Sequence record: SRR22947727_1910
Direction: 5' to 3' (one strand)
DNA: 35,158 bases
Part shown: positions 9,261 through 33,915 of the stretch, in pieces
How positions within the stretch are numbered: position 1 is the first letter of the stretch
Layout: each line of letters opens with the position of its first letter
Translations under genes and position numbers: made by a program
Notes under the pieces: model-generated
Database searches by the model: none
What the model saw: only the letters and a program-made list of their open reading frames with translations
What the model was told of the DNA's origin: nothing

Positions 9261-9692
9261 TTACCAGTTACCAACGTCGTCTTCATTCCCCGCTATCATG
9301 TCAGGTCCCATCGAGAAAACATCTTGTCCTGATGAGTTGCGCGAACCGGGGTTTTTATACTGATAAGGTTGGCCCCATGAATCGATGAGTGCTTCAGGCC
9401 CTGTGCTTTGAGTCCACCGCTTTGGTTTTGGCGGCGCCGTAGGGGGCTCAACCAGTGCTTTCAATCCTTGTTCGGTGGTAGGGAAGAATCCTGCTTTCGC
9501 TTTGTAGCGTACTAAATTGGTTTCCAGGCTCCGAACATCCGCCCGCGCTTTGTCGACATCAGCGTCTGACAAAACATTTTTCATCGCGAACGCGCCGAGT
9601 CCCACGAGAAGCGAAATGATCGCCAAAACCAGCACCATTTCCATCAGGGTGAATCCACCGCTTGCCCTTCTGTTCGTCGTCACCATTTTCAT
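9261..9692 (-). CDS. gspG: Type II secretion major pseudopilin GspG
   Basis: G|FTLME prepilin cleavage site, FPTTEQGLKALV, DSWGQPYQYKNPG, SMGPD...DDVGNW. Confidence 0.93.
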   Translation of the reverse strand: MKMVTTNRRASGGFTLMEMVLVLAIISLLVGLGAFAMKNVLSDADVDKARADVRSLETNLVRYKAKAGFFPTTEQGLKALVEPPTAPPKPKRWTQSTGPEALIDSWGQPYQYKNPGSRNSSGQDVFSMGPDMIAGNEDDVGNW

Positions 9693-17157: not shown

Positions 17158-18573
17158 TCAATACTGCTTCCGCATGTGGCTTGGGAGAATGTGCAATTCG
17201 TCGCGATACTTTGCTACCGTTCGCCGAGCAATTTTCAGCCCCTTTTCTTCGAGCTTTTTCACCAACGCCGCATCGCTGAGCGGTTTTTTGTGATCTTCTT
17301 CGGCGACGATTTCGGCCAGTGCTTTTTTAACGCTGGTATTGCTCATCGTTTCACCGCTCTCGGTTTCGTATCCGGTGGTGAAAAAATATTTCATCTCAAA
17401 AACACCCCAAGGAGTTTTCATGTACTTTCCTGAAACCGCCCGGCTGACCGTGGTTTCATGGACCTCAACGATTTCAGCAATCTGAGCCATGTTCATCGGA
17501 TGCAACTTGGACGCGCCATGCTCGAAGAAATCGACTTGTCGTTTTACGATCTGATTAGCGATGTTTTCGATCGTCTGCTGGCGCTGGTGAATACTGCGAA
17601 TGAGAAATTTTCCTGCGCGAATTTTTTCGCGAATGTACTCCCGCACTTCACCTTTTCCGCCGCTACCGCTCTGGGCCATTAGATCTTTATAGGAGTTGCT
17701 GATCCGCAGTCGGGGAATTTGCTCATTCACCATTTGGACTTTCCACTCGTCTCCGACTTGTTCGACGATAACGTCCGGCGTTACATAAGCATTGGTGCCG
17801 GTGGTGTAATCACTGCCAGGCTTTGGGTCCAATCGGGCGATTGCTTCAGCCGCTGCCGAAATCTGATCGACCGCTACTCCCGTTTTTTTTGCAATTTGGG
17901 GAAAGCGATGTTTCGCGAGATCATCGAGATACTTGTCAATGATACGATATTCCAGACTGTGATGCTTTCCGTTTTGGTCGAGTTGTATCAAAAGACACTC
18001 CCGAAGATCGCTTGCTCCAACCCCTTTTGGTTCAAAGGTTTGAATCAAAAGTTGAGCGCGCTCCAAATCGTCGAAAGGAATCGCCATATCCATCGCAAAA
18101 TCTTCCAGATCGAGTTGTAAAAATCCGTTGTCGTCGATATTTCCGATCAGAAGCTCGACTAGTTTTCGCTGATCGGTTTCGACGTCGGCAACACTAAGTT
18201 GTTCAAGCAGATGCTCTTGGAGAGTCTGCGTTTCTACCAGCGAATCCATCATGAACTGATGTCGTTCATCTGCATCCGAACGTTGATTGGACGCGCGCGA
18301 TTCCTTCAAATAATCGCGCCACTCCTGATCCATCTGCGACAGCTCAGCGAATTCTTTATCAAAGTCCTCGTCGTGATTTTCTTGAGCCGTTTCTTCCAGC
18401 GAAATTTCCTCCGTCTCGTCATCCAATACCGGATTGATATCAAGTTCACGCTGAACCATGTGCCGCAATTCCAAAGTGGGAGATTGCAGCAATTCGAGCG
18501 ATTGCTGCATTTGCGGAGCAATCGTTTGTTGTTGTTGCAGCGACTGAGACTGCGAAAATCGTTGGTCGGCCAT
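17158..18573 (-). CDS. rpoN: RNA polymerase sigma-54 factor
   Basis: Gln-rich region I, HETTVSRA helix-turn-helix, RpoN box ARRTVAKYR. Confidence 0.98.
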   Translation of the reverse strand: MADQRFSQSQSLQQQQTIAPQMQQSLELLQSPTLELRHMVQRELDINPVLDDETEEISLEETAQENHDEDFDKEFAELSQMDQEWRDYLKESRASNQRSDADERHQFMMDSLVETQTLQEHLLEQLSVADVETDQRKLVELLIGNIDDNGFLQLDLEDFAMDMAIPFDDLERAQLLIQTFEPKGVGASDLRECLLIQLDQNGKHHSLEYRIIDKYLDDLAKHRFPQIAKKTGVAVDQISAAAEAIARLDPKPGSDYTTGTNAYVTPDVIVEQVGDEWKVQMVNEQIPRLRISNSYKDLMAQSGSGGKGEVREYIREKIRAGKFLIRSIHQRQQTIENIANQIVKRQVDFFEHGASKLHPMNMAQIAEIVEVHETTVSRAVSGKYMKTPWGVFEMKYFFTTGYETESGETMSNTSVKKALAEIVAEEDHKKPLSDAALVKKLEEKGLKIARRTVAKYRDELHILPSHMRKQY

Positions 18574-22664: not shown

Positions 22665-22822
22665 CCTTACATTCCCACCAAAACATTCCGATGGATTGGG
22701 GTGAAAATCGAATTTCATCCCTCCAGCTGAGGTAGCGTTCTTCAATTTCGCTGCACGAAGCATCGGAATGGGTGATTCGATGGGGATTCAGTCTGATTAG
22801 CACTTCAAATCATTTAAAAATC

Positions 22823-23641
22823 ATGGTCCTGAATAAATCTAAATATAGCTCACTTTGTATGGCGGTCTTAGCTCTGGTCTCCGGCGCGCAGCAGTTGGTG
22901 GTGGCTCAGCAAAATGGGGGCATTGATTTTAATTCGGGAGGCACCAGGGAGGCACTAATTATCCCTCCAAAGAGAGTCTCGGCCGATCAGTTATCCGGAA
23001 AGATGGTGGATTCAAAACAAATGGCATACGAGCTGATATACACTCGAGAGGCCAATGCGCCCAGGCCGGGGGAGCTAGCTCCGGATTTTGAATTGGTTAC
23101 GGCGGACGGGGATCGCACCGTAAAACTTTCAGATCTAATAAAAACCAAGCCAGTCGTTCTCGTTATGTCCAGTTGGGGATGCGACGTATTTCGCGAGTCG
23201 CTGGCGGGGCTTCAGCAATTATATAGCCGGTATTCCGATGACGCTCATTTTGTGATGGTTTACATTCGCGAAGTTCACGCAAAAGGGGGCTTTGCAAGTG
23301 GTCTGGGTCGCGTCCCGGATGCAAAGAATATTGAAGAGCGGAAGTTGCATGCGCAGAGATGTCGCAAACAACTACGACTTCCGTTTTTGTATCTGGTTGA
23401 TGAAATGACCGACCCCGTTGCAACCCGATGGTCGGCATGGCCGGTCAGAGCATTTATTGTCGAAAAAGACAACACCGTCATCTATGCCGGATCTCAGGGC
23501 CCGTGGGGGTATCGGCCGTATCAAGGATTTTTGCACGGAGACGGAGCGCCTATGAAATTTGATATTGAATTTAATTCTCAATCAATTGAGGAATTGCTTG
23601 AAGAGCGTTTTCCGAAAAATGTTTCAGAGCCCCGTAATTAG
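22823..23641 (+). CDS. Exported iodothyronine deiodinase-like (thioredoxin-fold) protein, Cys form
   Basis: APDFEL, KPVVLVMSSWGCDVF, FVMVYIREVH, LVDEM, WSAWPVRAF, IYAGSQGPWGY follow the deiodinase motif order. Confidence 0.8.
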   Translation: MVLNKSKYSSLCMAVLALVSGAQQLVVAQQNGGIDFNSGGTREALIIPPKRVSADQLSGKMVDSKQMAYELIYTREANAPRPGELAPDFELVTADGDRTVKLSDLIKTKPVVLVMSSWGCDVFRESLAGLQQLYSRYSDDAHFVMVYIREVHAKGGFASGLGRVPDAKNIEERKLHAQRCRKQLRLPFLYLVDEMTDPVATRWSAWPVRAFIVEKDNTVIYAGSQGPWGYRPYQGFLHGDGAPMKFDIEFNSQSIEELLEERFPKNVSEPRN

Positions 23642-23750: not shown

Positions 23751-24468
23751 ATGAATAGCTAGCAGCCTAAATACATTTTTTTGGGGAATGATGATTCCGG
23801 TGATTGCCATCTCATCCAGTAGCAATGCTCAGGAATCCGAGGAAAAACCGGCGAGCTCGAGTGGATTACCATTGCAACCGGTACTTTCAAAACGGGTCAC
23901 GGTAGATCAGTTTAGTGGGAAAAAGATACCGTCGAATCGGGAAGGGCTTGCAGTTATCGAAGCGCGAGAGGCCAATGCTCCGCGTCCTGGTGAACCCGCG
24001 CCGGATTTCAGTCTCCTGACCGCAGATGGCGATCGGCGAGTCAGATTACACGATTTGATCAAGACTAAGCCGGTTGTTTTGGTGTATGCCAGTTGGGGGT
24101 GTGATGTTTTCCGGGAATCACTTGCTGGACTTCAGGAGCTCCACACTCGTTATTCGAAAGACGCTCATTTTGTGTTGGTCTATGTTCGTGAGGCTCATTC
24201 ACGTGATGGTGACGAGAACCGAGCACTCGCGAGAGAGGTCGATGAAATCGAAGATCCGGTGGCGACTCAATGGTCAGGGTAGCCGGTCAGGGCATTTGTG
24301 GTGGACACGAATACCCAAGTAATTTATGCGGGAGGCCAGGGGTCATTTGCCTACCGGCCTTATCGAGGATTTACTCAAGGGAATGGAGAGCTTTATGGAT
24401 TGGATGGGTTATTCAATCAGCAGTCTTTGGAGGAGTTCCTTGAACTTCGCTTTCCTAAGCAAAAATAG
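23751..24468 (+). pseudogene. Decayed paralogue of the deiodinase-like gene
   Basis: In-frame TAG at 24280-24282 where the paralogue has Trp; homology continues to TAG 24466-24468; about 26 aa missing after REAH; the probable original ATG 23751 is followed by a TAG and a frameshift. Confidence 0.85.
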
Positions 24469-27159: not shown

Positions 27160-27222
27160 GTGCGAAATTTTTAGCACTTATTTTCTTGACCAAATTCAGG
27201 GGACGTGCGAAAAAATTAGCAT
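27160..27222. promoter_or_regulatory. Twin 18-bp palindromic operators flanking a TTGACC -35 (putative BlaI sites)
   Basis: GTGCGAAATTTTTAGCAC (27160-27177) and GTGCGAAAAAATTAGCAT (27205-27222); TTGACC at 27186. Confidence 0.75.
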
Positions 27223-27613
27223 GGCAACGATAAAGTCCGAAGAGGAGTCGAAATTCAGCCGACGAGAAGGCGAGGTGATGGAGGTTCTTTTTCGAAAGGG
27301 TTCGGCAACTGCGCGCGAAGTGTGGACAGCGCTCGGCGAAACGCGGACGTATTCGACGGTGCGAAAGCTCCTCAGTATTCTCGAAGAAAAAGGCCATGTG
27401 ACTCACAAATCGGAAGGGGCCGCATTTGTCTATTCACCCAAAATTGAAAAGAAGGCCGCAGCTTCGACGGCGATGGGGAAACTGGTCGAAACCTTTTTTC
27501 AGGGCTCGGTCGCGGGTGCTGTTTCAAGTTTACTCGGTGAGAAAGGCCACAAGCTTTCGCCCGAAGAACTTGATCGCATTGGCAAATTAATCGAAGACGC
27601 AAAGGGAAAATAA
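27221..27613 (+). CDS. BlaI/MecI/CopY family repressor
   Basis: SRREGEVMEVL, TYSTVRKLLSILEEKG, FVYSP, TFFQGS, LSPEEL. Confidence 0.95.
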   Translation: MATIKSEEESKFSRREGEVMEVLFRKGSATAREVWTALGETRTYSTVRKLLSILEEKGHVTHKSEGAAFVYSPKIEKKAAASTAMGKLVETFFQGSVAGAVSSLLGEKGHKLSPEELDRIGKLIEDAKGK

Positions 27614-27625
27614 ACCAAACAGCAA

Positions 27626-29956
27626 ATGATGAACGATCTTAATTTACCTGTTTTCCTCGCTGAATTTCTTGCGAAATCAGCCATCGTGGTGGCACTCGGT
27701 TTTACATTTGCTGCGGCTGTTCGAAGCCTCGCACCCGCTTTGAAACACGGCCTGTGGCTTCGCGTTTTTGCCGCAAGTTTGGCGATTCCGCTGCTGCTGT
27801 TGGTGTTTCCCCGTTGGGAAATTTTGCCAAGTCTAACTGAGACCCCAGCGCCCGTCACTGAACCGCTTGCTGCTGTCGATTCACCGATGATCTACACATC
27901 CACCTTCACACCGGAAGGTGGAGTGATCATTCCTACCCCGCCCAATCGATTGGAGTTTTCCTGGCCGTGGATTCTCTTTTCAGTTTGGGGAATCGGCGTT
28001 GTGTTTTGGATCTTTCGTTCGTTCGCGGCCAGCGCATTTTTGCGAAAAATCGAACGGAGCGCTCGTCATCCGGATTCGGGTTTGCTCGAAAAATTCACAG
28101 CGCTGAAACAATCGGTCGGCGCGAAGCAGCCGGTCACGCTGCTGATTTCTCCGCTCGTGAAATCGCCTTTTACGTGGGGGCTCACCAGCCCACGGATCGC
28201 ACTGCCGGAATCGGCGGGGGATTTTCCTGAAGCTGATATCGAAATGATTTTGCTTCACGAGCTCGAACACGTCCGCCGCCGCGATGCGCTTGCGGTGCTG
28301 ATTTCGCGGATGTTTTTCGCAATGAACTGGGTCAATCCTCCTGCCTGGCTTGCGATTCGTGAAACAACGAGTCTTCGCGAAGAAGCCTGCGATCGTCGTG
28401 TCCTGAGTTCAGGTCACGCTTCCGAGAGCTATGCCGAGATGCTTTTTCGACAGGCAAAGACCGCCTCCAATCCCTATTTACAAACCTGTGCCACCGCCGT
28501 GGCCGAAACCGGAACCATAGAAAAACGTATCCAAATGATCCTGAATAACCATCTCCAACCCATTCGCGAAAAATCATCCCTCGTGTCCCGGCTTTGCGGG
28601 ATCGCGATTTTGTTCGCTATTTTTGTGATCGGAATCTCCGGGTGTTCTGACAGCGAATCGAAAGTCTTCGATGCCAAAACGATCTCAGATCTGCCTGGCC
28701 AGGACAGCGAAGCGATTGTCATAATCGAGCAGAAGCTCAAAGAGATAATCGTTCCTTCCGTGAAGTTTTCAGATACGCTACTAAAGGACGCATTGGCGTT
28801 TCTCCAGCAGCGTTCCGTCGAACTGGATGTCAACGAACCCGATCCTGCAAAGAAAGGATTCAACATTATTTCAAATGTTGGGAGTATTGAAGACGCCCGT
28901 ATCACATTACACCTCACAAACGTCCCGATCGGCGAAGCTCTCCGTTACACGGCCTCATTGGCGCAATTGAAATACAAAGTTGAGCCAAACGCCGTAGTGG
29001 TCATTCCACTTTCAACCAAAACTTCCGAGCTTTACACGAATAGCTATCAGGTTCCACCAACATTTCATAAGAGTGGGAATTCAAACTCGGAAACGGCCAT
29101 TGAAATTCTCGAAGAAGCCGGAATTACTTTTCCACCAGGCGGAAGTGCGATCTATAACGCGAAAAATTCTCAACTTATCGTTCGGAATACGAGTGATCAA
29201 ATGGAGCTTGTTGAGGCTTTTCTTGATTCCCTCACGCCCCAGATCCCCGAAACTGCAGTCAGTCCTGAGATCGAAGCTTATCTCAAGAAGATCGAATCCA
29301 TCACCCTACCGTCTGTGGAATTCGTCGATACGCCGATCATGGATGCGGTCGCGTTTCTTCAATCGCGTTCAGTCGAGTTGGACACTCTGGAAACGGATCC
29401 TGCAAAAAAGGGCATTAACATCGTTGTTGCCGCAGGCAAAATTCGCGACACCAGGTTGAATCTCAGATTAGTCAATGTCCCCCTCAGTGAAGCACTGCGC
29501 TACACCGCCGAGTTGGCTGGTGGCGGATTCAAGGTCGACGAATCGGCCGTAGTCATCGGCTACGAAAAGTCGACCCCTCGCCCCCCAAAAGAAGATTCAG
29601 ATGCAAATGCGAAGATTGCGGCAAATGAAAAGAAATTGGCCTTGATCATCATCCCGAAGATCGACTTTCACGGCACGCCGTTTACCGACGCCTTGCAATT
29701 TCTTCAGCAGCGTTCCGTCGAACTCGACACCGAATCCGATCCATCGAAAAAAGGAATCAATGTTGTTTTGAACGGTTCTGCGGATGCCTTGATTACACTC
29801 AAACTCGCCAACGTGCCGCTGTCCGAAGCTCTGAAATACACCTGCCAACTCGCGAGAATGGAATACAAAGTCGAGTCTCACAAGATTCTGATCAGCCCCG
29901 AAAAAAAGTCGAGAGCGAAATCGGAAGAGACGGTCGCAGATCCCTTTGCCCAATAA
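27626..29956 (+). CDS. BlaR1-like M56 metallopeptidase fused to repeated secretin N-terminal-like domains
   Basis: SPFTWG..P.I.LP, HELEH, WVNP, REEACD, KRIQMI; three copies of I..P.V.F.DT...DA..FLQ.RSVELD...DP.KKG.N...L.L.NVP..EAL.Y. Confidence 0.85.
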   Translation: MMNDLNLPVFLAEFLAKSAIVVALGFTFAAAVRSLAPALKHGLWLRVFAASLAIPLLLLVFPRWEILPSLTETPAPVTEPLAAVDSPMIYTSTFTPEGGVIIPTPPNRLEFSWPWILFSVWGIGVVFWIFRSFAASAFLRKIERSARHPDSGLLEKFTALKQSVGAKQPVTLLISPLVKSPFTWGLTSPRIALPESAGDFPEADIEMILLHELEHVRRRDALAVLISRMFFAMNWVNPPAWLAIRETTSLREEACDRRVLSSGHASESYAEMLFRQAKTASNPYLQTCATAVAETGTIEKRIQMILNNHLQPIREKSSLVSRLCGIAILFAIFVIGISGCSDSESKVFDAKTISDLPGQDSEAIVIIEQKLKEIIVPSVKFSDTLLKDALAFLQQRSVELDVNEPDPAKKGFNIISNVGSIEDARITLHLTNVPIGEALRYTASLAQLKYKVEPNAVVVIPLSTKTSELYTNSYQVPPTFHKSGNSNSETAIEILEEAGITFPPGGSAIYNAKNSQLIVRNTSDQMELVEAFLDSLTPQIPETAVSPEIEAYLKKIESITLPSVEFVDTPIMDAVAFLQSRSVELDTLETDPAKKGINIVVAAGKIRDTRLNLRLVNVPLSEALRYTAELAGGGFKVDESAVVIGYEKSTPRPPKEDSDANAKIAANEKKLALIIIPKIDFHGTPFTDALQFLQQRSVELDTESDPSKKGINVVLNGSADALITLKLANVPLSEALKYTCQLARMEYKVESHKILISPEKKSRAKSEETVADPFAQ

Positions 29957-29966
29957 ATTCCAGCGG

Positions 29967-30012
29967 CACGGATCGACAGGGCTGATTCGATGAACAGACC
30001 CTGTTGTTTCGT
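29967..30012. repeat. Palindromic REP-like doublet (locus E)
   Basis: cacggatcGACAGGGctgattc-GAT-gaacagaCCCTGTTgtttcgt. Confidence 0.8.
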
Positions 30013-30100
30013 TAAAATGCGTTTTATCGGATCAGGCAAAATCTGTGCATTCCACATTCGCGGTATTGCTTCGCTTGCGAAAATTCGGCACGCTTTGTTA

Positions 30101-30937
30101 ATGAAAAAACTGATTCCCATTTTTGTGGCTTTGGCCGTTGCATTGACTTCCGCGCAGGGCGGTGAGTGGAAAACGCTCTTTGATGGAAAATCTCTCGATG
30201 GCTGGAAAGGGCTTGATTTCTGGAGTGTGAAAGACGGAACGATTTTTGGTGAAACGACGGAAGCGAAGCCGACCAAGGGAAACACGTTTCTGATTCTTCA
30301 GGACGAAGTGGTGACTGATTTTGAGTTCACTTGCCAGGTGAAATTCGGCGGGAATAATTCGGGCGTGATGTATCGGTCGAACACTGTCGATGAAGCGAAT
30401 TTTGTGATGGCTGGTTATCAGGCTGACCTTCACCCAAAAGCTGAGTATTTTGGAATGCTTTACGGCGAGAAATTTGGCAAACGCGGGATCGTTGCTCAGC
30501 GTGGTCAGCGAGTCGTCACGAAGGCAGATGGATCGAAAGCAGTTGTCAACGCGATTGGTGATGACGCAAAACTGGTCGATACGGAGTGGAATGAATTGCG
30601 TGTCGTGGCCGTTGGAGATCGCATTCTACATTTTGTGAACGGCCAGATCACAATGGACCTCACCGAGAATCACCCGGACGCGATTGCCAAAGGCCAGATT
30701 GGTCTTCAGCTCCATGCTGGCCCTGCGATGTGGGTGAATTTTAAGGATCTGAAGCTACGTCACCTCGAAGGCGACGAAGCAAAGGCAGTGCTTGCTGAAG
30801 GAGTTGCTATTTCTGACAAGTCCGCGAAACCAGCACCAAAACCGATCCCCGCAAAAGGTAAGGGGAAGGGCAAAGGAAAAGCAGGGAAGAAAGCGGCTGC
30901 AGCGCCGGCTCAAAAAAAAACGACACAGCGTGGCTGA
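30101..30937 (+). CDS. DUF1080 (3-keto-disaccharide hydrolase-like) domain; probably the 5' part of a frameshifted fusion
   Basis: Signal peptide, LFDGKSLDGW, NSGVMYR, GYQAD, WNE, GQIGLQLH, FKDL; K/G/A-rich linker ending at an A9 run. Confidence 0.88.
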   Translation: MKKLIPIFVALAVALTSAQGGEWKTLFDGKSLDGWKGLDFWSVKDGTIFGETTEAKPTKGNTFLILQDEVVTDFEFTCQVKFGGNNSGVMYRSNTVDEANFVMAGYQADLHPKAEYFGMLYGEKFGKRGIVAQRGQRVVTKADGSKAVVNAIGDDAKLVDTEWNELRVVAVGDRILHFVNGQITMDLTENHPDAIAKGQIGLQLHAGPAMWVNFKDLKLRHLEGDEAKAVLAEGVAISDKSAKPAPKPIPAKGKGKGKGKAGKKAAAAPAQKKTTQRG

Positions 30938-33915
30938 AGTCGGGTGAGAAGCCACAGTGGATTTGGAATGAAAGAAATGCCGGGAAGAAACTTTGGCTGC
31001 GTCATGAGTTTGAGATTCCCGCTGACGTAAAGTCGGCGACGATTTACGCGACTTGCGACAACGGTGCGACGTTGTTCCTGAACGGCGAGAAAATCGGCGA
31101 ATGCCCCGATTGGTATTTTCCGATTCATCGCAGCGGATTGGAAAAGTTGCTTAAAAAGGGTACCAATACGATTGCCGCTTCAGCAACCAACGAGGGTGAC
31201 GTTGCTGCATTCATCCTTCGATTGGATATCGAAACCACTGACGGTAAGAAACTGACCGTCACGTCGAAGGCCGCCGGTTGGAAAGGCACAAATACAAAGC
31301 CTGCTGATGGTTGGGAAAAAGCGGGATTCGATAGTCCCGCGTGGAGTGAAAAACTGAAATCGTTTGGCGAAATCGGCATCGGTCCGTGGGGAATTCCAAA
31401 TGGCACGAAAGGTAGCGGGGGAGGTCGTACGCCACAGAAAAAAAGTCCGATCGAATCGGAAGACATCACGGTTGCAGAGGGCTTCAAGGTCGAGTTGCTC
31501 TATACCGTTCCCCGAGACGAACAGGGCTCGTGGGTATCGCTAACGAAAGATCCGAAGGGCCGATTTTATTCCTGCGATCAGGGAAAACAGGGGCTTTTTC
31601 GCATTACTGTTAGTGGTGCCGAAACTGAGGTTGAAAAAATTGAACTTGATGGTTTAAGCGGTGCGCAAGGTTTGGAATGGGCATTCGGTGGATTGTATTT
31701 CAACAAAAATGGCGGCGTTCTCTACAAGCTGACGGATTCCGATGGTGACGACAAATTGGACAAAATCGAAGAGCTGCCGAATGGAACGGGGGGCGGCGAG
31801 CATGGCAATCACGCGGTCACGCTCACGCCGGATGGCAAGGGGCTTTTTCTTGATGGGGGAAACCACGCACCAATACCGCCGGAAGAATCGATTACGCGGA
31901 AACGAGTGCAGTCGTGGGATGAGGATTTGCTGCTTCCCCGCCAATGGGATGCACGCGGTCATGCGCGCGGGAAGCTTGCGCCGGGCGGCTGGGTTTCGCG
32001 TTTTGACCCCGAAGCAAAAACGCACGATATCATTTCGACCGGTTATCGAAATCAGTATGACGTCGCCCTAAATTCTATGGGTGATTTGTTTACCTATGAC
32101 GCAGACATGGAGTGGGATCTCGGCATGCCGTGGTACCGCCCGACGCGGATCAATTTCGTGGTGAGCGGTTCCGATTACGGCTGGCGCTCAGGTTCAGGAA
32201 AATGGCCAAGCTACTACGAAGACTCGCTGCCGCCCGTTGTTGAGATCGGCCCCGGCTGCCCGACCGGAGTTGTCACGGGAGTCAGGACAAAATTCCCGAC
32301 GAAATATCAGGAAGCGATCTACGCGCTCGATTGGACCTTTGGCACGATTTACGTGATTCATCTCGAAGCAGACGGCGCTGGTTACAAAGGAAAAGCTGAG
32401 CCGTGGGTTTATGGATCGCCGCTTCCGGTTACCGATGCGGAAATCGGGGATGATGGGAATTTCTATTTTCTGATCGGTGGACGGAATACGCAGTCGGCGT
32501 TCTATCGGGTGAGTTATGTGGGAGACACTAAAACCGCATCAATCAAAGTGACATCTGCTAGTGACGCAGTGAATACGAGAAACGCGTTGGAAGTATTCCA
32601 CGGTGTCGAAGATACCAAAGCCGTCGAAGAAGCTTGGCCATATCTCTCAAGTGAAGACCGTTTTCTCCGCCACGCCGCCCGTGTCGCGATCGAATCACAA
32701 CCAGTCGATCAATGGGCTGAGCAAGTTGTAACAGAATCAGATCCACAGGCCAAAATCACTGCAGCCGTTGCGCTCGCGAGGATGGGTGACTCCGAAAAAC
32801 ACCGAGCTGGGCTGACGGCTGCCTTGGTTTCTCTTGATTCGGATAAACTAACGGCTCCACAGCTTCTCGGACTGCTTCGTGCTTACGCTCTGGATTTCAT
32901 CCGGCTCGGAAAGCCAACTCGCACGGAAACTGCGCAAATCATCTCGGAGCTTGATCCGCTTTTACCTTCGGAAAATAATGATGTGAACACCGAGTTGATT
33001 CGTGTTCTCACCTATCTCGAAGCACCGAGCGTGGTTCCGAAAACGATGAAGCTCATTACGGAGCGAGGCGAAACCGAAGTTCCTGATTGGACCGAGCTAG
33101 CAAGCCGAAACCCAAGTTACGGTGGCACCATTTTGAAGGTGCTCGAAAATCATCCGCCGTCTCGCGAGATCAATTATGCCTTCATGCTGCGTAATACCCG
33201 CAGGGGCTGGACAACGGAAACGCGCCGTCAGTATTTCGAGTTTTTGAACGAAGCCGCGAAGTTTTCGGGTGGCGCGAGTTATCCCGGTTTCCTTGCCAAC
33301 ATCCGCACTGAAGCCCTCGGAAATTGCAGCGATGCCGACCGAGCCGCGGTTGCAGAAATCACCGGCGAAGATTTCAATCCCAAGCCTGATTTTGAAATCA
33401 AACAGCCCGTCGGCCCCGGTCGGGTATGGACTCTCGCGGAAGCAAACGCCGAAATTGGGAATCGCGGAAAAGGCCGCAGTTTCGAAAGAGGACGGAATTT
33501 GTTTCACGCCACCGCTTGTGCGGCCTGCCATCGTTTCGACGGACTCGGCGGAGCGATTGGACCAGATCTCACGAGTGTGAAAAACAAGTTCGATCGGAAA
33601 TATCTCATCGAATCTATTATCGATCCGAGCAAAACTATTTCCGACCAATACGGCTCTTCAATGGTGACGCTGAAGAACGGCAAGGCCCATACCGGCCTCG
33701 CGGTTGAGAACGGCGAGGACTTCGCGATTTACCCACCTGACGCGACTGCCGAGCCGATCAAAGTCAAAACCGCTGAGGTGGCCAAAGTCGATCAAGTCCC
33801 GGTTTCGCAAATGCCACCGGGCCTGATCAATACGCTGAATCCCGAAGAACTTGCAGATCTCGTCGCCTACCTCATGAGCGGTGGCGATGCGAATAACAAG
33901 GCTTTCAAGGAGTGA
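30919..33915 (+). CDS. PVC-type haem-c membrane-bound dehydrogenase-like protein (beta-sandwich, propeller, HEAT, CxxCH); 3' part of the fusion
   Basis: Frame is open from the A9 run (QWIW...ATCDNG..LFLNG); GFKVELLY, EHGNH, GYRNQYD, DMEWD, CAACH, GPDLT, SQMP. Confidence 0.85.
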   Translation, partial: NDTAWLKSGEKPQWIWNERNAGKKLWLRHEFEIPADVKSATIYATCDNGATLFLNGEKIGECPDWYFPIHRSGLEKLLKKGTNTIAASATNEGDVAAFILRLDIETTDGKKLTVTSKAAGWKGTNTKPADGWEKAGFDSPAWSEKLKSFGEIGIGPWGIPNGTKGSGGGRTPQKKSPIESEDITVAEGFKVELLYTVPRDEQGSWVSLTKDPKGRFYSCDQGKQGLFRITVSGAETEVEKIELDGLSGAQGLEWAFGGLYFNKNGGVLYKLTDSDGDDKLDKIEELPNGTGGGEHGNHAVTLTPDGKGLFLDGGNHAPIPPEESITRKRVQSWDEDLLLPRQWDARGHARGKLAPGGWVSRFDPEAKTHDIISTGYRNQYDVALNSMGDLFTYDADMEWDLGMPWYRPTRINFVVSGSDYGWRSGSGKWPSYYEDSLPPVVEIGPGCPTGVVTGVRTKFPTKYQEAIYALDWTFGTIYVIHLEADGAGYKGKAEPWVYGSPLPVTDAEIGDDGNFYFLIGGRNTQSAFYRVSYVGDTKTASIKVTSASDAVNTRNALEVFHGVEDTKAVEEAWPYLSSEDRFLRHAARVAIESQPVDQWAEQVVTESDPQAKITAAVALARMGDSEKHRAGLTAALVSLDSDKLTAPQLLGLLRAYALDFIRLGKPTRTETAQIISELDPLLPSENNDVNTELIRVLTYLEAPSVVPKTMKLITERGETEVPDWTELASRNPSYGGTILKVLENHPPSREINYAFMLRNTRRGWTTETRRQYFEFLNEAAKFSGGASYPGFLANIRTEALGNCSDADRAAVAEITGEDFNPKPDFEIKQPVGPGRVWTLAEANAEIGNRGKGRSFERGRNLFHATACAACHRFDGLGGAIGPDLTSVKNKFDRKYLIESIIDPSKTISDQYGSSMVTLKNGKAHTGLAVENGEDFAIYPPDATAEPIKVKTAEVAKVDQVPVSQMPPGLINTLNPEELADLVAYLMSGGDANNKAFKE

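What the first reader, a model, noticed from the sequence alone, without database searches (positions are those of the whole stretch)
27626..29956. BlaR1-type sensor whose exported part is built from secretin N-terminal domains
Seen: an M56 protease (HELEH, 28256-70), then three homologous ~95-aa domains (~28724-29008, 29279-29560, 29624-29899; DNA repeat cagcagcgttccgtcgaact in copies 1 and 3). After copy 1 comes a LYTNSYQVPP...GITFPPGGSAIY...QLIVRNT..QMELVE domain. From recall these resemble the N0/STN-like and N3-like periplasmic domains of verrucomicrobial pilus/T2SS secretins (Amuc_1098-like), with no secretin barrel. Known: BlaR1 senses beta-lactams through a penicillin-binding domain and triggers BlaI cleavage; STN domains relay signals in FecA-type systems. 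Inference: a signalling system that monitors secretin/pilus assembly or cargo, or acts as a secretin decoy.
Basis: partly seen in the sequence, partly recalled or inferred. Interest (0 to 1): 0.75.

Follow-up and report, generated by a model that had tools for sequence, protein, structure and literature searches.

The report
BlaR-type sensor built from secretin domains
A verrucomicrobial repressor/membrane-protease gene pair of the BlaI/BlaR type carries, instead of a penicillin-binding sensor, four periplasmic domains copied from the inner end of a pilus secretin, so it probably senses a protein contact in the cell envelope rather than an antibiotic.

Summary
ORF 27626-29956 (776 aa) is an intact M56 (BlaR1-type) zinc protease: HELEH 211-215, E252, four predicted TM helices. 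Its periplasmic tail is R1-N-R2-R3. R is a ~95-aa secretin N0/STN-like domain present three times (54-55% identical). N is a secretin N1-type beta-alpha-beta-beta-alpha domain. The NCBIfam Amuc_1098 secretin model hits every piece (whole protein 5e-94). The R1-N unit is 60-66% identical to the same unit of Amuc_1098-family secretins. An AlphaFold model (pLDDT 91.5) matches solved secretin N0-N1 structures. There is no barrel or TPR in the window, so it is not a broken secretin.

A BlaI repressor gene lies directly upstream here and in 12 of 12 independent related loci. Each locus has two conserved dyad operators (GTGCGAA-N4-TTCGCAY) around the promoter, and no further site was found in about 283 kb scanned. 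I read this as an autoregulated proteolytic switch.

The R module is widespread (3711 cluster representatives). It also forms the outer part of Ser/Thr kinases and occurs in vWA, HEAT, giant and small proteins. A specific link to secretin or pilus assembly is therefore not shown: neighbouring genes give no support and the complex prediction gave no verdict. I rate it a new variant of the non-canonical BlaIR systems, of moderate interest.

The parts
27160..27177 (+). Operator dyad 1 (GTGCGAAATTTTTAGCAC), just upstream of the -35 box
   Evidence: Conserved dyad GTGCGAA-N4-TTCGCAY found at the same place in L001-L005 and L007-L014. BlaI binding is inferred, not shown.
27186..27191 (+). TTGACC, -35-like hexamer between the two dyads
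   Evidence: TTGACC (TTGCC in L012) sits between the dyads in every upstream region printed. Its promoter function is inferred.
27205..27222 (+). Operator dyad 2 (GTGCGAAAAAATTAGCAT). Its last two bases are the first two of the blaI start codon
   Evidence: Spacing to dyad 1 is 45 bp here and 44-45 bp in the related loci. The overlap with the ATG leaves no room for a leader, so a leaderless mRNA is inferred.
27221..27613 (+). blaI-like repressor gene (130 aa)
   Evidence: Pfam Penicillinase_R 2.6e-26. Winged-helix part aligns to B. licheniformis BlaI 1p6r (3.3e-7). 67-89% identical copies lie directly upstream of the M56 gene in 12 of 12 independent loci.
27626..29956 (+). blaR-like gene: M56 protease with secretin-domain sensor (776 aa, P0001)
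27644..27805 (+). TM helices 1 and 2 (aa 7-31, 37-60)
   Evidence: AlphaFold model helices. Fold match to S. aureus BlaR1 8exs/8exp/8exr.
27806..27961 (+). Periplasmic loop 1 (aa 61-112), Pro-rich, poorly conserved, low model confidence
   Evidence: pLDDT 44-67. 33% mean identity among 6 orthologues.
27962..28567 (+). TM3 and cytoplasmic gluzincin domain (aa 113-314): HELEH 28256-28270, E252 at 28379-28381, D256
   Evidence: H211, E212, D220, E252 and D256 are invariant, and H215 is at least 90% conserved, in 72 M56-R proteins. HEXXH and the E..D motif align with S. aureus BlaR1. 8exr_A rmsd 2.6 over 176 columns.
28568..28636 (+). TM helix 4 (aa 315-337), which puts the rest of the protein in the periplasm
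   Evidence: Same topology as BlaR1.
28724..29008 (+). R1: N0/STN-like domain (aa 367-461), preceded by a linker helix (aa 360-373)
   Evidence: NF042912 positions 253-355, 1e-24. Model pLDDT 91.5, beta-alpha-beta-beta-alpha-beta-beta. Foldseek hits secretin N0-N1; 4ar0 PilQ N0 rmsd 2.0 over 85 columns.
29009..29278 (+). N: secretin N1-type domain (core aa 469-536, beta-alpha-beta-beta-alpha)
   Evidence: NF042912 positions 408-461, 2.8e-15. Pfam Secretin_N only 0.016. Secondary structure. The R1-N unit is 60-66% identical to the R-N unit of 56 secretins.
29279..29563 (+). R2: N0/STN-like domain (aa 552-646), the best conserved part of the whole protein
   Evidence: NF042912 3.4e-23. 77% mean identity among 6 orthologues against 67% for the protease part.
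29624..29899 (+). R3: N0/STN-like domain (aa 667-758)
   Evidence: NF042912 5.6e-23; TIGR02515 PilQ and HofQ models also touch it. PDB sequence hit 4ar0 PilQ N0, E 0.041.

Best explanation
This is a two-gene, self-repressed proteolytic switch of the BlaI/BlaR (M56) type. Its sensor is a string of four secretin-type periplasmic domains (N0-like, N1-like, N0-like, N0-like) in place of a penicillin-binding domain.

Proposed mechanism:
1. A BlaI dimer sits on two dyad operators that flank the -35 box and cover the start site, which keeps the blaI-blaR operon almost off.
2. The M56 protein sits in the inner membrane with four TM helices, with its zinc protease in the cytoplasm.
3. Its roughly 430-residue beads-on-a-string arm reaches across the periplasm.
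4. The arm makes or loses a protein-protein contact of the kind N0/STN domains make elsewhere. Examples are secretin N0 with the inner-membrane platform, and the sigma-regulator STN subdomain with the signalling domain of a TonB-dependent transducer.
5. The change passes through TM4 to the protease, BlaI is cut, and the operon plus any other operator-bearing genes elsewhere in the genome are switched on.

Shown here: the gene pair, an intact catalytic motif, the predicted topology, the fold and homology of the sensor domains, conservation of the pair and of the operators, and purifying selection on the sensor.

Inferred: BlaI binding to the dyads, cleavage of BlaI, that the signal is a protein contact, and the identity of the partner.
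For: - M56 domain is above the Pfam cutoff, with HELEH.
- H211, E212, D220, E252 and D256 are invariant in 72 M56-R proteins.
- The catalytic motifs align to S. aureus BlaR1.
- The full-length model (pLDDT 87) has four TM helices, and BlaR1 cryo-EM structures are its top fold matches.
- BlaI (Penicillinase_R, 2.6e-26) ends 12 nt upstream of the M56 gene. It is present directly upstream in 12 of 12 independent Verrucomicrobiales loci that include upstream DNA.
- Two dyads, 44-45 bp apart, occur in every one of those loci. None occurs elsewhere in the 35-kb window or in about 248 kb of L001-L014.
- Sensor homology: NF042912 5e-94; 60-66% identity of R1-N to secretin R-N; model pLDDT 91.5; 32 PDB matches at E<=0.001, and every one of those listed is a secretin periplasmic domain.
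- The sensor is under constraint: R2 is 77% identical among 6 orthologues against 67% for the protease part.
- The family is real. 32 of the 120 listed hits to the sensor region carry PF05569. 59 of the best 150 representatives for the R profile are M56 proteins. Their domain orders vary: R-R-R 16, R-R 16, R-N-R-R 7 and others, out of 72.
- The same module is the outer part of three Ser/Thr kinases (P0142, P0169, P0244), which fits a sensing role.
- Precedents: STN subdomains in the sensor parts of the PupR and FoxR sigma regulators bind the signalling domain of an outer-membrane transducer (abstracts of PMC7186176 and PMC11637429). Non-canonical BlaR sensors are common (passages of PMC13492132).
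Against: - No biochemical evidence of any kind exists, and no partner has been identified.
- Apart from blaI, the neighbouring genes are not conserved and give no hint of a regulon or partner.
- The operator was found only at the operon itself in the DNA I could scan, so the output of the switch is unknown.
- The BlaI cleavage site could not be aligned, because the only PDB sequence match covers the DNA-binding domain alone.
- Pfam STN, FecR_C and Secretin_N hits are all below their gathering scores. The domain assignment therefore rests on NCBIfam, the secretin alignment and the predicted fold.
- The R module also occurs in many non-signalling contexts: vWA, HEAT, giant proteins and small R-R proteins. 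It could be a spacer or scaffold and not a ligand-binding sensor.
Confidence: 0.6

Rival explanations
1. Secretin/pilus monitor or decoy. The arm copies the inner end of the genome's Amuc_1098-type type IV pilus secretin. It either binds what that end binds (a PilP/GspC-type platform domain) or docks onto the secretin's own N-domain ring. BlaI cleavage would then report whether the secretin is assembled or engaged.
For: - The R1-N unit is 60-66% identical to secretin R-N, including the linker between the two domains.
- M56 and secretin units share a well-supported 80-row clade (support 95) within the wider module family.
- Six M56-R relatives even carry a partial PF00263 secretin segment between TM4 and the repeats, above the Pfam cutoff in 4 of 6. 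An Atlas cluster of 57 members shows M56 in 100% and Secretin in 67%.
- From established knowledge, not a call: N0 of solved secretins binds the inner-membrane platform. 3oss (GspC-GspD) and 4av2 (PilQ) appear among the fold matches.
Against: - No pilus or secretin gene lies near the pair in the window or in 12 related loci.
- The window's M56 unit sits in its own 6-row M56 clade (support 97), beside the secretins and not inside them. The high identity may simply reflect slowly evolving secretins with short branches.
- Most M56-R relatives have no N domain at all: R-R-R and R-R account for 32 of 72.
- The module is also used by kinases, vWA and other proteins.
Confidence: 0.17
2. Cell-surface-signalling analogue. 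The N0/STN-like domains bind the STN-type signalling domain, or another periplasmic part, of an outer-membrane transporter or another R-module protein. This would work as FecR/PupR/FoxR do, with M56/BlaI replacing the anti-sigma/ECF sigma pair.
For: - FecR_C and STN are the only Pfam families that touch the repeats, weakly.
- A FecR-like anti-sigma factor, 4m0h, is among the fold matches (E 0.011, prob 1.0).
- The PupR and FoxR STN subdomains bind transducer signalling domains (abstracts).
- Per passages of PMC13492132, common M56 architectures include TonB_C, Plug and CarbopepD_reg_2. These are all periplasmic parts of TonB-dependent transport, so borrowing outer-membrane-machine domains is a recurrent theme among M56 sensors.
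- Many small R-R proteins exist that could be partners.
Against: - The sequence affinity is far stronger to secretins (NF042912 5e-94) than to STN or FecR_C, which are sub-threshold.
- No TonB-dependent receptor lies next to the pair in the loci inspected.
- No partner has been identified.
Confidence: 0.13
3. Not a sensor. The R/N string is a passive periplasm-spanning spacer or scaffold, and the M56 protease serves mainly as a membrane anchor or acts on other substrates. BlaI autoregulation would then be constitutive.
For: - The module occurs in many proteins with no signalling domain, including vWA, HEAT, giant TPR proteins and small R-R proteins.
- M56-TonB fusions in Bacteroides are uncharacterised, and the paper's authors could only suggest signalling (passages of 10.1101/2023.07.07.548152).
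Against: - BlaI linkage is strict, 12 of 12 loci, with conserved dual operators.
- Catalytic residues are invariant in 72 proteins.
- R2 is more conserved than the protease part.
- The same module sits on receptor-type Ser/Thr kinases.
Confidence: 0.08
4. Artefact: a broken secretin gene fused to an M56 gene by rearrangement or misassembly.
For: None found.
Against: - No barrel or TPR homology exists anywhere in the window in six frames.
- The ORF ends at a stop, and an unrelated gene follows 34 nt later.
- An identical protein lies in a public record, and identical DNA lies on another contig, L001.
- Orthologues of 778-788 aa have the same domain order.
- 72 M56-R proteins are known from the searches.
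Confidence: 0.01

Closest known systems
BlaI/BlaR1 and MecI/MecR1 of Staphylococcus and Bacillus (beta-lactam sensing)
   Same: Repressor gene followed by an M56 membrane protease gene. Four-TM topology, with HEXXH plus a downstream Glu in the cytoplasm. The sensor follows TM4 outside the membrane. Two dyad operators lie at the operon's own promoter.
   Different: There is no penicillin-binding/transpeptidase sensor. NCBIfam blaR1_generic scores 93.1 bits against a cutoff of 400. The operator half-site is TGCGAA, not the staphylococcal type (the latter is recalled, not tested). No beta-lactamase or PBP gene is nearby.
Non-canonical BlaIR systems (CenIR of C. difficile; M56 proteins with TonB_C, Plug, M23 and other tails)
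   Same: An M56 protease and a BlaI partner with a non-beta-lactam sensor. The published survey found 254 architectures, with transpeptidase sensors in only about 6% (passages of PMC13492132).
   Different: A secretin N0/N1 sensor is not among the nine common architectures named there, and the word STN does not occur in that paper's main text. I did not read its supplementary tables. Here the sensor is folded and repeated, not short and disordered as in CenR.
Amuc_1098-family type IV pilus secretins of Verrucomicrobiota
   Same: The R-N unit (N0-like plus N1-like domain with its linker) is homologous, at 60-66% identity.
   Different: There are no TPR domains and no secretin barrel. The score of 315.9 bits is far below the family cutoff of 750. 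The secretin R domain carries a Gly-rich insert that the M56 copies lack. The M56 protein is anchored in the inner membrane, not the outer membrane.
FecR/PupR/FoxR sigma regulators of cell-surface signalling
   Same: An inner-membrane signalling protein whose periplasmic part contains an STN-fold domain and works by protein contact and regulated proteolysis (abstracts). 4m0h is among the fold matches.
   Different: The cytoplasmic part is a protease acting on a repressor, not an anti-sigma domain. There are three N0-like domains plus an N1-like one, not one STN subdomain behind a juxta-membrane subdomain. The sequence affinity is to secretins.

Membership tests
Peptidase M56 / BlaR1-type signal transducers (broad family) | Pfam PF05569 above its gathering score | tested here: met
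   116.9 bits against a cutoff of 31, aa 18-305.
Peptidase M56 / BlaR1-type signal transducers (broad family) | Zinc site: HEXXH plus a downstream Glu | tested here: met
   H211-E-L-E-H215 and E252/D256. These align to the BlaR1 motifs and are invariant or nearly so in 72 relatives.
Peptidase M56 / BlaR1-type signal transducers (broad family) | Four TM helices with the protease in the cytoplasm and the C-terminal domain outside | tested here: met
   Predicted only. AlphaFold helices at aa 7-31, 37-60, 113-145 and 315-337. Top fold matches are 8exs, 8ext, 8exp, 8exq and 8exr.
Peptidase M56 / BlaR1-type signal transducers (broad family) | Adjacent BlaI-family repressor gene | tested here: met
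   Penicillinase_R 2.6e-26. Present in 12 of 12 independent related loci.
Peptidase M56 / BlaR1-type signal transducers (broad family) | Signal-dependent cleavage of the repressor | not testable with these tools
   Needs a cleavage assay.
BlaR1/MecR1 proper (beta-lactam sensors) | C-terminal penicillin-binding (transpeptidase-type) sensor domain | tested here: not met
   No such Pfam or NCBIfam hit. blaR1_generic scores 93.1 against a cutoff of 400, and sensor_BlaR1 and sensor_MecR1 score far below 1200. All these matches lie within aa 116-344.
Amuc_1098-family secretin (NF042912) | Full-length score of at least 750 bits | tested here: not met
   315.9 bits, from four partial stretches.
Amuc_1098-family secretin (NF042912) | C-terminal secretin barrel (PF00263) and N-terminal TPR region | tested here: not met
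   No PF00263 or TPR hit in the protein. No barrel or TPR homology in six frames of the window.
Amuc_1098-family secretin (NF042912) | Homologous N0-like plus N1-like periplasmic unit | tested here: met
Secretin N0 / STN fold | beta-alpha-beta-beta-alpha-beta-beta fold matching solved N0 domains | tested here: met
   Predicted model pLDDT 91.5. Matches include 4av2, 6w6m, 6rwk, 4ec5, 3gr5 and 3ezj, and 4ar0 at rmsd 2.0 over 85 columns.
Secretin N0 / STN fold | Pfam STN (PF07660) above its gathering score | tested here: not met
   22.8 bits against a cutoff of 28.4 for the whole protein. On single repeats it scores 15.9 or nothing. Several relatives do pass.
FecR-type sigma regulators | Cytoplasmic anti-sigma domain, with an ECF sigma gene adjacent | tested here: not met
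   The N-terminal part is M56. No ECF sigma factor was found among the window ORFs scanned; the only sigma factor is a sigma-54 at 17158-18573.

The most novel reading that the evidence does not exclude
In Verrucomicrobiota the R (N0-like) module is a common docking domain. It ties a set of inner-membrane signalling proteins (M56 proteases and Ser/Thr kinases) and other envelope proteins to the periplasmic end of the type IV pilus secretin or to its platform partner. On this reading, the M56-R-N protein is a secretin mimic that reports the assembly or engagement state of the pilus machine to a BlaI repressor. That would be a new envelope checkpoint built from spare parts of the machine it watches.
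Probability: 0.15. Interest if true: 0.75.

Novelty: new variant of a known kind. Interest (0 to 1): 0.5.

Why it matters
BlaIR systems are textbook antibiotic sensors, yet a 2026 survey found that most M56 proteins lack a penicillin-binding domain and their signals are unknown (passages of PMC13492132). This family offers a folded, recognisable sensor whose relatives in solved machines bind defined protein partners. That makes the question "what does a non-canonical BlaR sense?" testable by pull-downs and two-hybrid assays.

It also shows that secretin N-domains are used in Verrucomicrobiota as a general periplasmic module on proteases, kinases and other proteins. This may point to a network of envelope contacts centred on the Amuc_1098-type pilus secretin, a protein of current interest in Akkermansia (search listing). 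The conserved dual operator gives a ready handle for finding the regulon in complete genomes.

Tried and rejected
- **Complex prediction**. I sent the periplasmic arm (aa 360-776) against the R-N region of a Verrucomicrobiales secretin (P0044, aa 262-516). The verdict was "no answer" (score 0.00, mark 0.34; controls not run; the tool did not use my alignments). This is evidence neither for nor against binding. The secretin was a stand-in from another genome.
- **Related loci, first attempt**. I repeated the search with a 10-sequence alignment.
- **Regulon from neighbours.** Flanking genes in 12 related loci are heterogeneous: RtcB, GNAT, ABC-2, esterase, Sua5, sulfatase, FGE-sulfatase and others. 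The only recurrence is a PF06439 (3-keto-disaccharide hydrolase family) protein next to the pair in the window, L002, L011, L013 and L014. I did not test this against its background frequency.
- **Operator scan for further targets.** No site was found beyond the operon promoter in the window or in L001-L014.
- **Recent copy from the secretin.** A FastTree tree of 158 R-N units puts the window's unit in an M56-only clade, not inside the secretins. These are quick-method supports only. I dropped two thirds of the secretin rows and the duplicate P0002 before building the tree.
- **BlaI cleavage site.** It could not be aligned, because the only PDB match covers the DNA-binding domain alone.
- **PDB by sequence for the arm.** Only 4ar0 appeared, at E 0.041.
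- **Terminator scan after the M56 gene.** No convincing terminator was found, and hit counts were no higher than in shuffles. The extent of the operon stays open.
- **Literature.** No paper in the library holds both "BlaR1" and "STN domain". "M56"+"BlaR1"+"secretin" gave only the Bacteroides TonB preprint. "BlaR1"+Verrucomicrobia/Planctomycetes gave nothing relevant in the 15 titles listed. The "Peptidase_M56/PF05569" search matched 8 papers, of which 5 were listed.
Full report
**1. The observation**

The window holds an ORF at 27626-29956 (+) of 776 aa.
- Pfam places Peptidase_M56 on aa 18-305 (E 1.3e-33, 116.9 bits, cutoff 31).
- HELEH is aa 211-215, which is nt 28256-28270.
- The quoted 20-nt string is exact at 28805 and 29705, and 0 of 100 shuffles gave two matches.
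- A 41-nt and a 32-nt repeat family cover all three copies.

**2. What the exported part is**

Pfam alone is weak here. STN scores 22.8 bits (cutoff 28.4), FecR_C 20.3 bits and Secretin_N has E 0.016.

The NCBIfam model of the Amuc_1098 family type IV pilus outer-membrane protein (NF042912) is much stronger.
- It hits the whole protein at 5e-94 (315.9 bits, cutoff 750).
- Each repeat hits profile positions about 253-355 (1e-24, 3.4e-23, 5.6e-23).
- The piece between repeats 1 and 2 hits positions 408-461 (2.8e-15).

A search with aa 345-776 gave 470 hits, of which 120 are listed.
- 32 carry PF05569 (M56), one of them identical to the query and named "M56 family metallopeptidase" in NCBI.
- 81 are TPR-plus-barrel secretins of 789-913 aa, many named Amuc_1098 family.
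- 7 are other proteins (classification).

Local HMMs for the repeat (R) and the middle domain (N) give two architectures.
- The window protein is M56[1-345]-R[367-461]-N[462-551]-R[552-646]-R[667-758].
- The secretins are TPR, then one R split by a Gly-rich insert, then one N, then the barrel.

The unit aa 360-551 aligned to 56 secretins is 60-66% identical to them. An AlphaFold model of that unit has pLDDT 91.5. Its first domain is beta-alpha-beta-beta-alpha-beta-beta and its second is beta-alpha-beta-beta-alpha.

Foldseek against the PDB gives 32 matches at E<=0.001. The listed ones are all secretin periplasmic domains: PilQ 4av2 and 6w6m, MxiD 6rwk, XcpQ 4ec5/5mp2/5ngi, EscC 3gr5, InvG and GspD 3ezj. 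Global TM-scores are low (0.25-0.35), as expected for two domains with a free hinge. The N0 domain 4ar0 fits at rmsd 2.0 over 85 columns. A FecR-like anti-sigma factor, 4m0h, appears at E 0.011.

So R is an N0/STN-type domain and N is an N1-type ring-building domain.

A six-frame search of the window finds no barrel and no TPR region. Orthologues of 778-788 aa end at the same place. A broken secretin fusion is therefore excluded.

**3. The protease half and the partner gene**

- The full-length model (72-sequence alignment, pLDDT 87) has helices at aa 7-31, 37-60, 113-145 and 315-337, and a low-confidence Pro-rich loop at aa 61-112.
- Its best PDB matches are the S. aureus BlaR1 cryo-EM structures. 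8exr_A fits at rmsd 2.6 over 176 columns.
- By sequence, 8exs and 8exp align with HEXXH and with the E..D motif.
- H211, E212, D220, E252 and D256 are invariant in 72 M56-R proteins.
- The gene directly upstream (27221-27613) is a Penicillinase_R repressor (2.6e-26). Its DNA-binding domain aligns to B. licheniformis BlaI.

**4. Related loci**

One scan of species-representative genomes returned 36 loci.
- L001 is the same sequence as the window, cut at a contig end.
- L002-L014 are Verrucomicrobiales/Verrucomicrobiia M56-R genes.
- The rest are M56 genes of other phyla without the R module.

A BlaI gene (67-89% identical) lies directly upstream in L002-L005 and L007-L014. That is 12 of 12 independent loci that include upstream DNA. 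L006 is a 1365-nt contig with no upstream sequence.

The upstream regions show a conserved layout. A dyad GTGCGAA-N4-TTCGCAY comes first, then TTGACC, then a second dyad 44-45 bp after the first. In most loci the last bases of the second dyad overlap the ATG of blaI.

A weight matrix built from 18 of these sites finds exactly these two positions per locus. It finds nothing else in the window (35 kb) or in L001-L014 (about 248 kb), down to 5 bits below the weakest training site. This is the classic dual-operator, self-repressed layout of bla/mec operons. Binding itself is inferred.

Other neighbours are not conserved. No secretin or pilus machinery gene is adjacent. The window's only such gene is a lone GspG-type pseudopilin at 9261-9692.

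**5. How widespread the module is**

A profile of the three repeats searched against 1.84 billion cluster representatives finds 3711 at E<=0.001, 1409 at E<=1e-10 and 237 at E<=1e-30. The best 150 rank high because they hold several repeats. Of these, 59 are M56 proteins and 91 are not.

Pfam on 35 of the 91 shows:
- three Ser/Thr kinases with R repeats as their C-terminal part (P0142, P0169, P0244);
- a vWA protein (P0093), a HEAT-repeat protein, and LptD_N and Reg_prop fusions;
- giant proteins of 1.4-3.1 thousand residues, some of them with TPR;
- small R-R proteins of about 230-350 aa.

Among 72 full-length M56-R proteins the domain order varies: R-R-R 16, R-R 16, R-N-R-R 7 (the window's type), R-R-R-N 6, R-R-N-R 5, R-N-R 5, R-N-R-N 5 and rarer forms.

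Six M56-R relatives carry a partial PF00263 segment (mostly profile positions about 2-120 of 169; 47-145 in P0140) between TM4 and the repeats. Four of the six are above the Pfam cutoff. An Atlas cluster of 57 members shows the same combination.

I built a quick tree of 158 R-N units, using one in three secretins and dropping P0002.
- The window's unit falls in a 6-row M56 clade (support 97).
- 27 secretin units with three other rows form a 30-row group (support 91) with short branches.
- Both lie within an 80-row clade (support 95) that also holds 19 other rows.

The M56 sensor is therefore an old sister of the secretin unit, not a recent copy.

**6. Constraint on the sensor**

Among six orthologues, mean pairwise identity by region is:

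| Region | Identity |
|---|---|
| R2 | 77% |
| Protease part | 67% |
| R3 | 65% |
| R1 | 64% |
| N | 59% |
| Outer loop (aa 63-112) | 33% |
| Post-TM4 linker (aa 341-359) | 32% |

The arm is at least as constrained as the enzyme.

**7. Mechanism**

The best-supported reading is a self-repressed BlaI/M56 proteolytic switch whose input is a contact made by N0/N1-type domains in the periplasm.

N0/STN domains are protein-binding domains wherever they have been studied. Secretin N0 binds the inner-membrane platform; this is established knowledge, and 3oss and 4av2 are among my fold matches. The STN subdomain of the PupR and FoxR sigma regulators binds the signalling domain of an outer-membrane transducer (abstracts of PMC7186176 and PMC11637429).

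Use of the same module on Ser/Thr kinases fits a sensing role. Which partner is sensed remains open. The secretin-monitor idea, a cell-surface-signalling analogue and a passive-scaffold role are kept as rivals. A complex prediction with a stand-in secretin gave no verdict and counts for nothing either way.

**8. Comparison with what is known, and novelty**

A 2026 paper on CenIR reports about 15,000 M56 proteins in 254 architectures. Transpeptidase sensors make up only about 6%. The common tails include TonB_C, M23, Plug, CarbopepD_reg_2, DUF4825 and Amidase_3. I read passages of that paper, not its supplements. The word STN does not occur in its main text.

I found no paper describing an M56 protein with a secretin-domain sensor. 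The protein itself is already in public records as "M56 family metallopeptidase", and some relatives carry a precomputed STN hit.

I therefore class it as a new variant of a known kind: a non-canonical BlaIR system with a well-defined, previously undescribed sensor type. It belongs to a sizeable verrucomicrobial family.

**9. Limits**

- Everything about function is inferred from sequence, predicted structure and conservation.
- The rest of this genome, and hence its secretin and the regulon, was not available.
- The tree used a quick method.
- Taxon range rests on record titles of 14 loci and on Atlas labels.

Noticed in passing
window 29990-33915 (break between about 30817 and 30919): The PF06439 (3-keto-disaccharide hydrolase family) ORF at 29990-30937 and the cytochrome c ORF at 31072-33915 correspond to one continuous 1268-aa gene in L002. 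L002 aa 1-239 match window 30101-30817 in frame 2 (89% identity). L002 aa 270-1268 match window 30919-33909 in frame 1 (83% identity). The frame change falls in a Lys/Gly/Ala-rich linker. It could be a true split, a frameshift or an assembly error.
   Followed up: partly
window 27205-27223; the same place in L002-L014: The second operator dyad ends inside the blaI start codon (…GCATG) in the window and in 11 of the 12 independent loci; L011 has a GTG start 3 nt further on. This leaves no room for a Shine-Dalgarno sequence and suggests a leaderless blaI-blaR transcript.
   Followed up: partly
proteins P0140, P0145, P0207, P0224, P0235, P0239 (relatives, not in the window): These M56-R proteins carry a partial Secretin (PF00263) segment between TM4 and the R repeats (mostly profile positions about 2-120 of 169; 47-145 in P0140). 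P0143, P0222 and P0254 have the same segment N-terminal to R repeats without a recognised M56 part. An Atlas cluster of 57 members shows M56 in 100% and Secretin in 67%.
   Followed up: partly
proteins P0142, P0169, P0244 (relatives, not in the window): These are Ser/Thr protein kinases whose C-terminal part is two or three R (N0-like) repeats. A second class of membrane signalling protein thus uses the same module.
   Followed up: partly
window 29990-30937; L002 13041-16847; L011 8786-9589; L013 2290-3141; L014 8721-9512: A PF06439 (3-keto-disaccharide hydrolase / DUF1080-type) protein lies next to the blaI-M56 pair in the window and in 4 of the 12 independent loci. It is sometimes divergent from the operator region. 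I did not test this against the high background of this family in such genomes.
   Followed up: no
window 9261-9692 (-): A lone GspG-type pseudopilin gene (T2SSG 8.2e-24, N_methyl) lies beside a trypsin-like peptidase and an FG-GAP repeat protein. No other secretion or pilus machinery gene is in the window.
   Followed up: no
window 22772-23641 and 23788-24282 (+): Two adjacent ORFs both match the iodothyronine deiodinase / AhpC-TSA thioredoxin-fold families. The second is short (164 aa) and covers only profile positions 72-150.
   Followed up: no
L005, L007, L008, L009: The R-R-R type M56 genes of these four genomes share a conserved neighbourhood with one another. It has a divergent esterase-family gene upstream and ORFs of about 150, 479 and 1024-1077 aa downstream on the other strand. 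This differs from the window's neighbourhood.
   Followed up: partly
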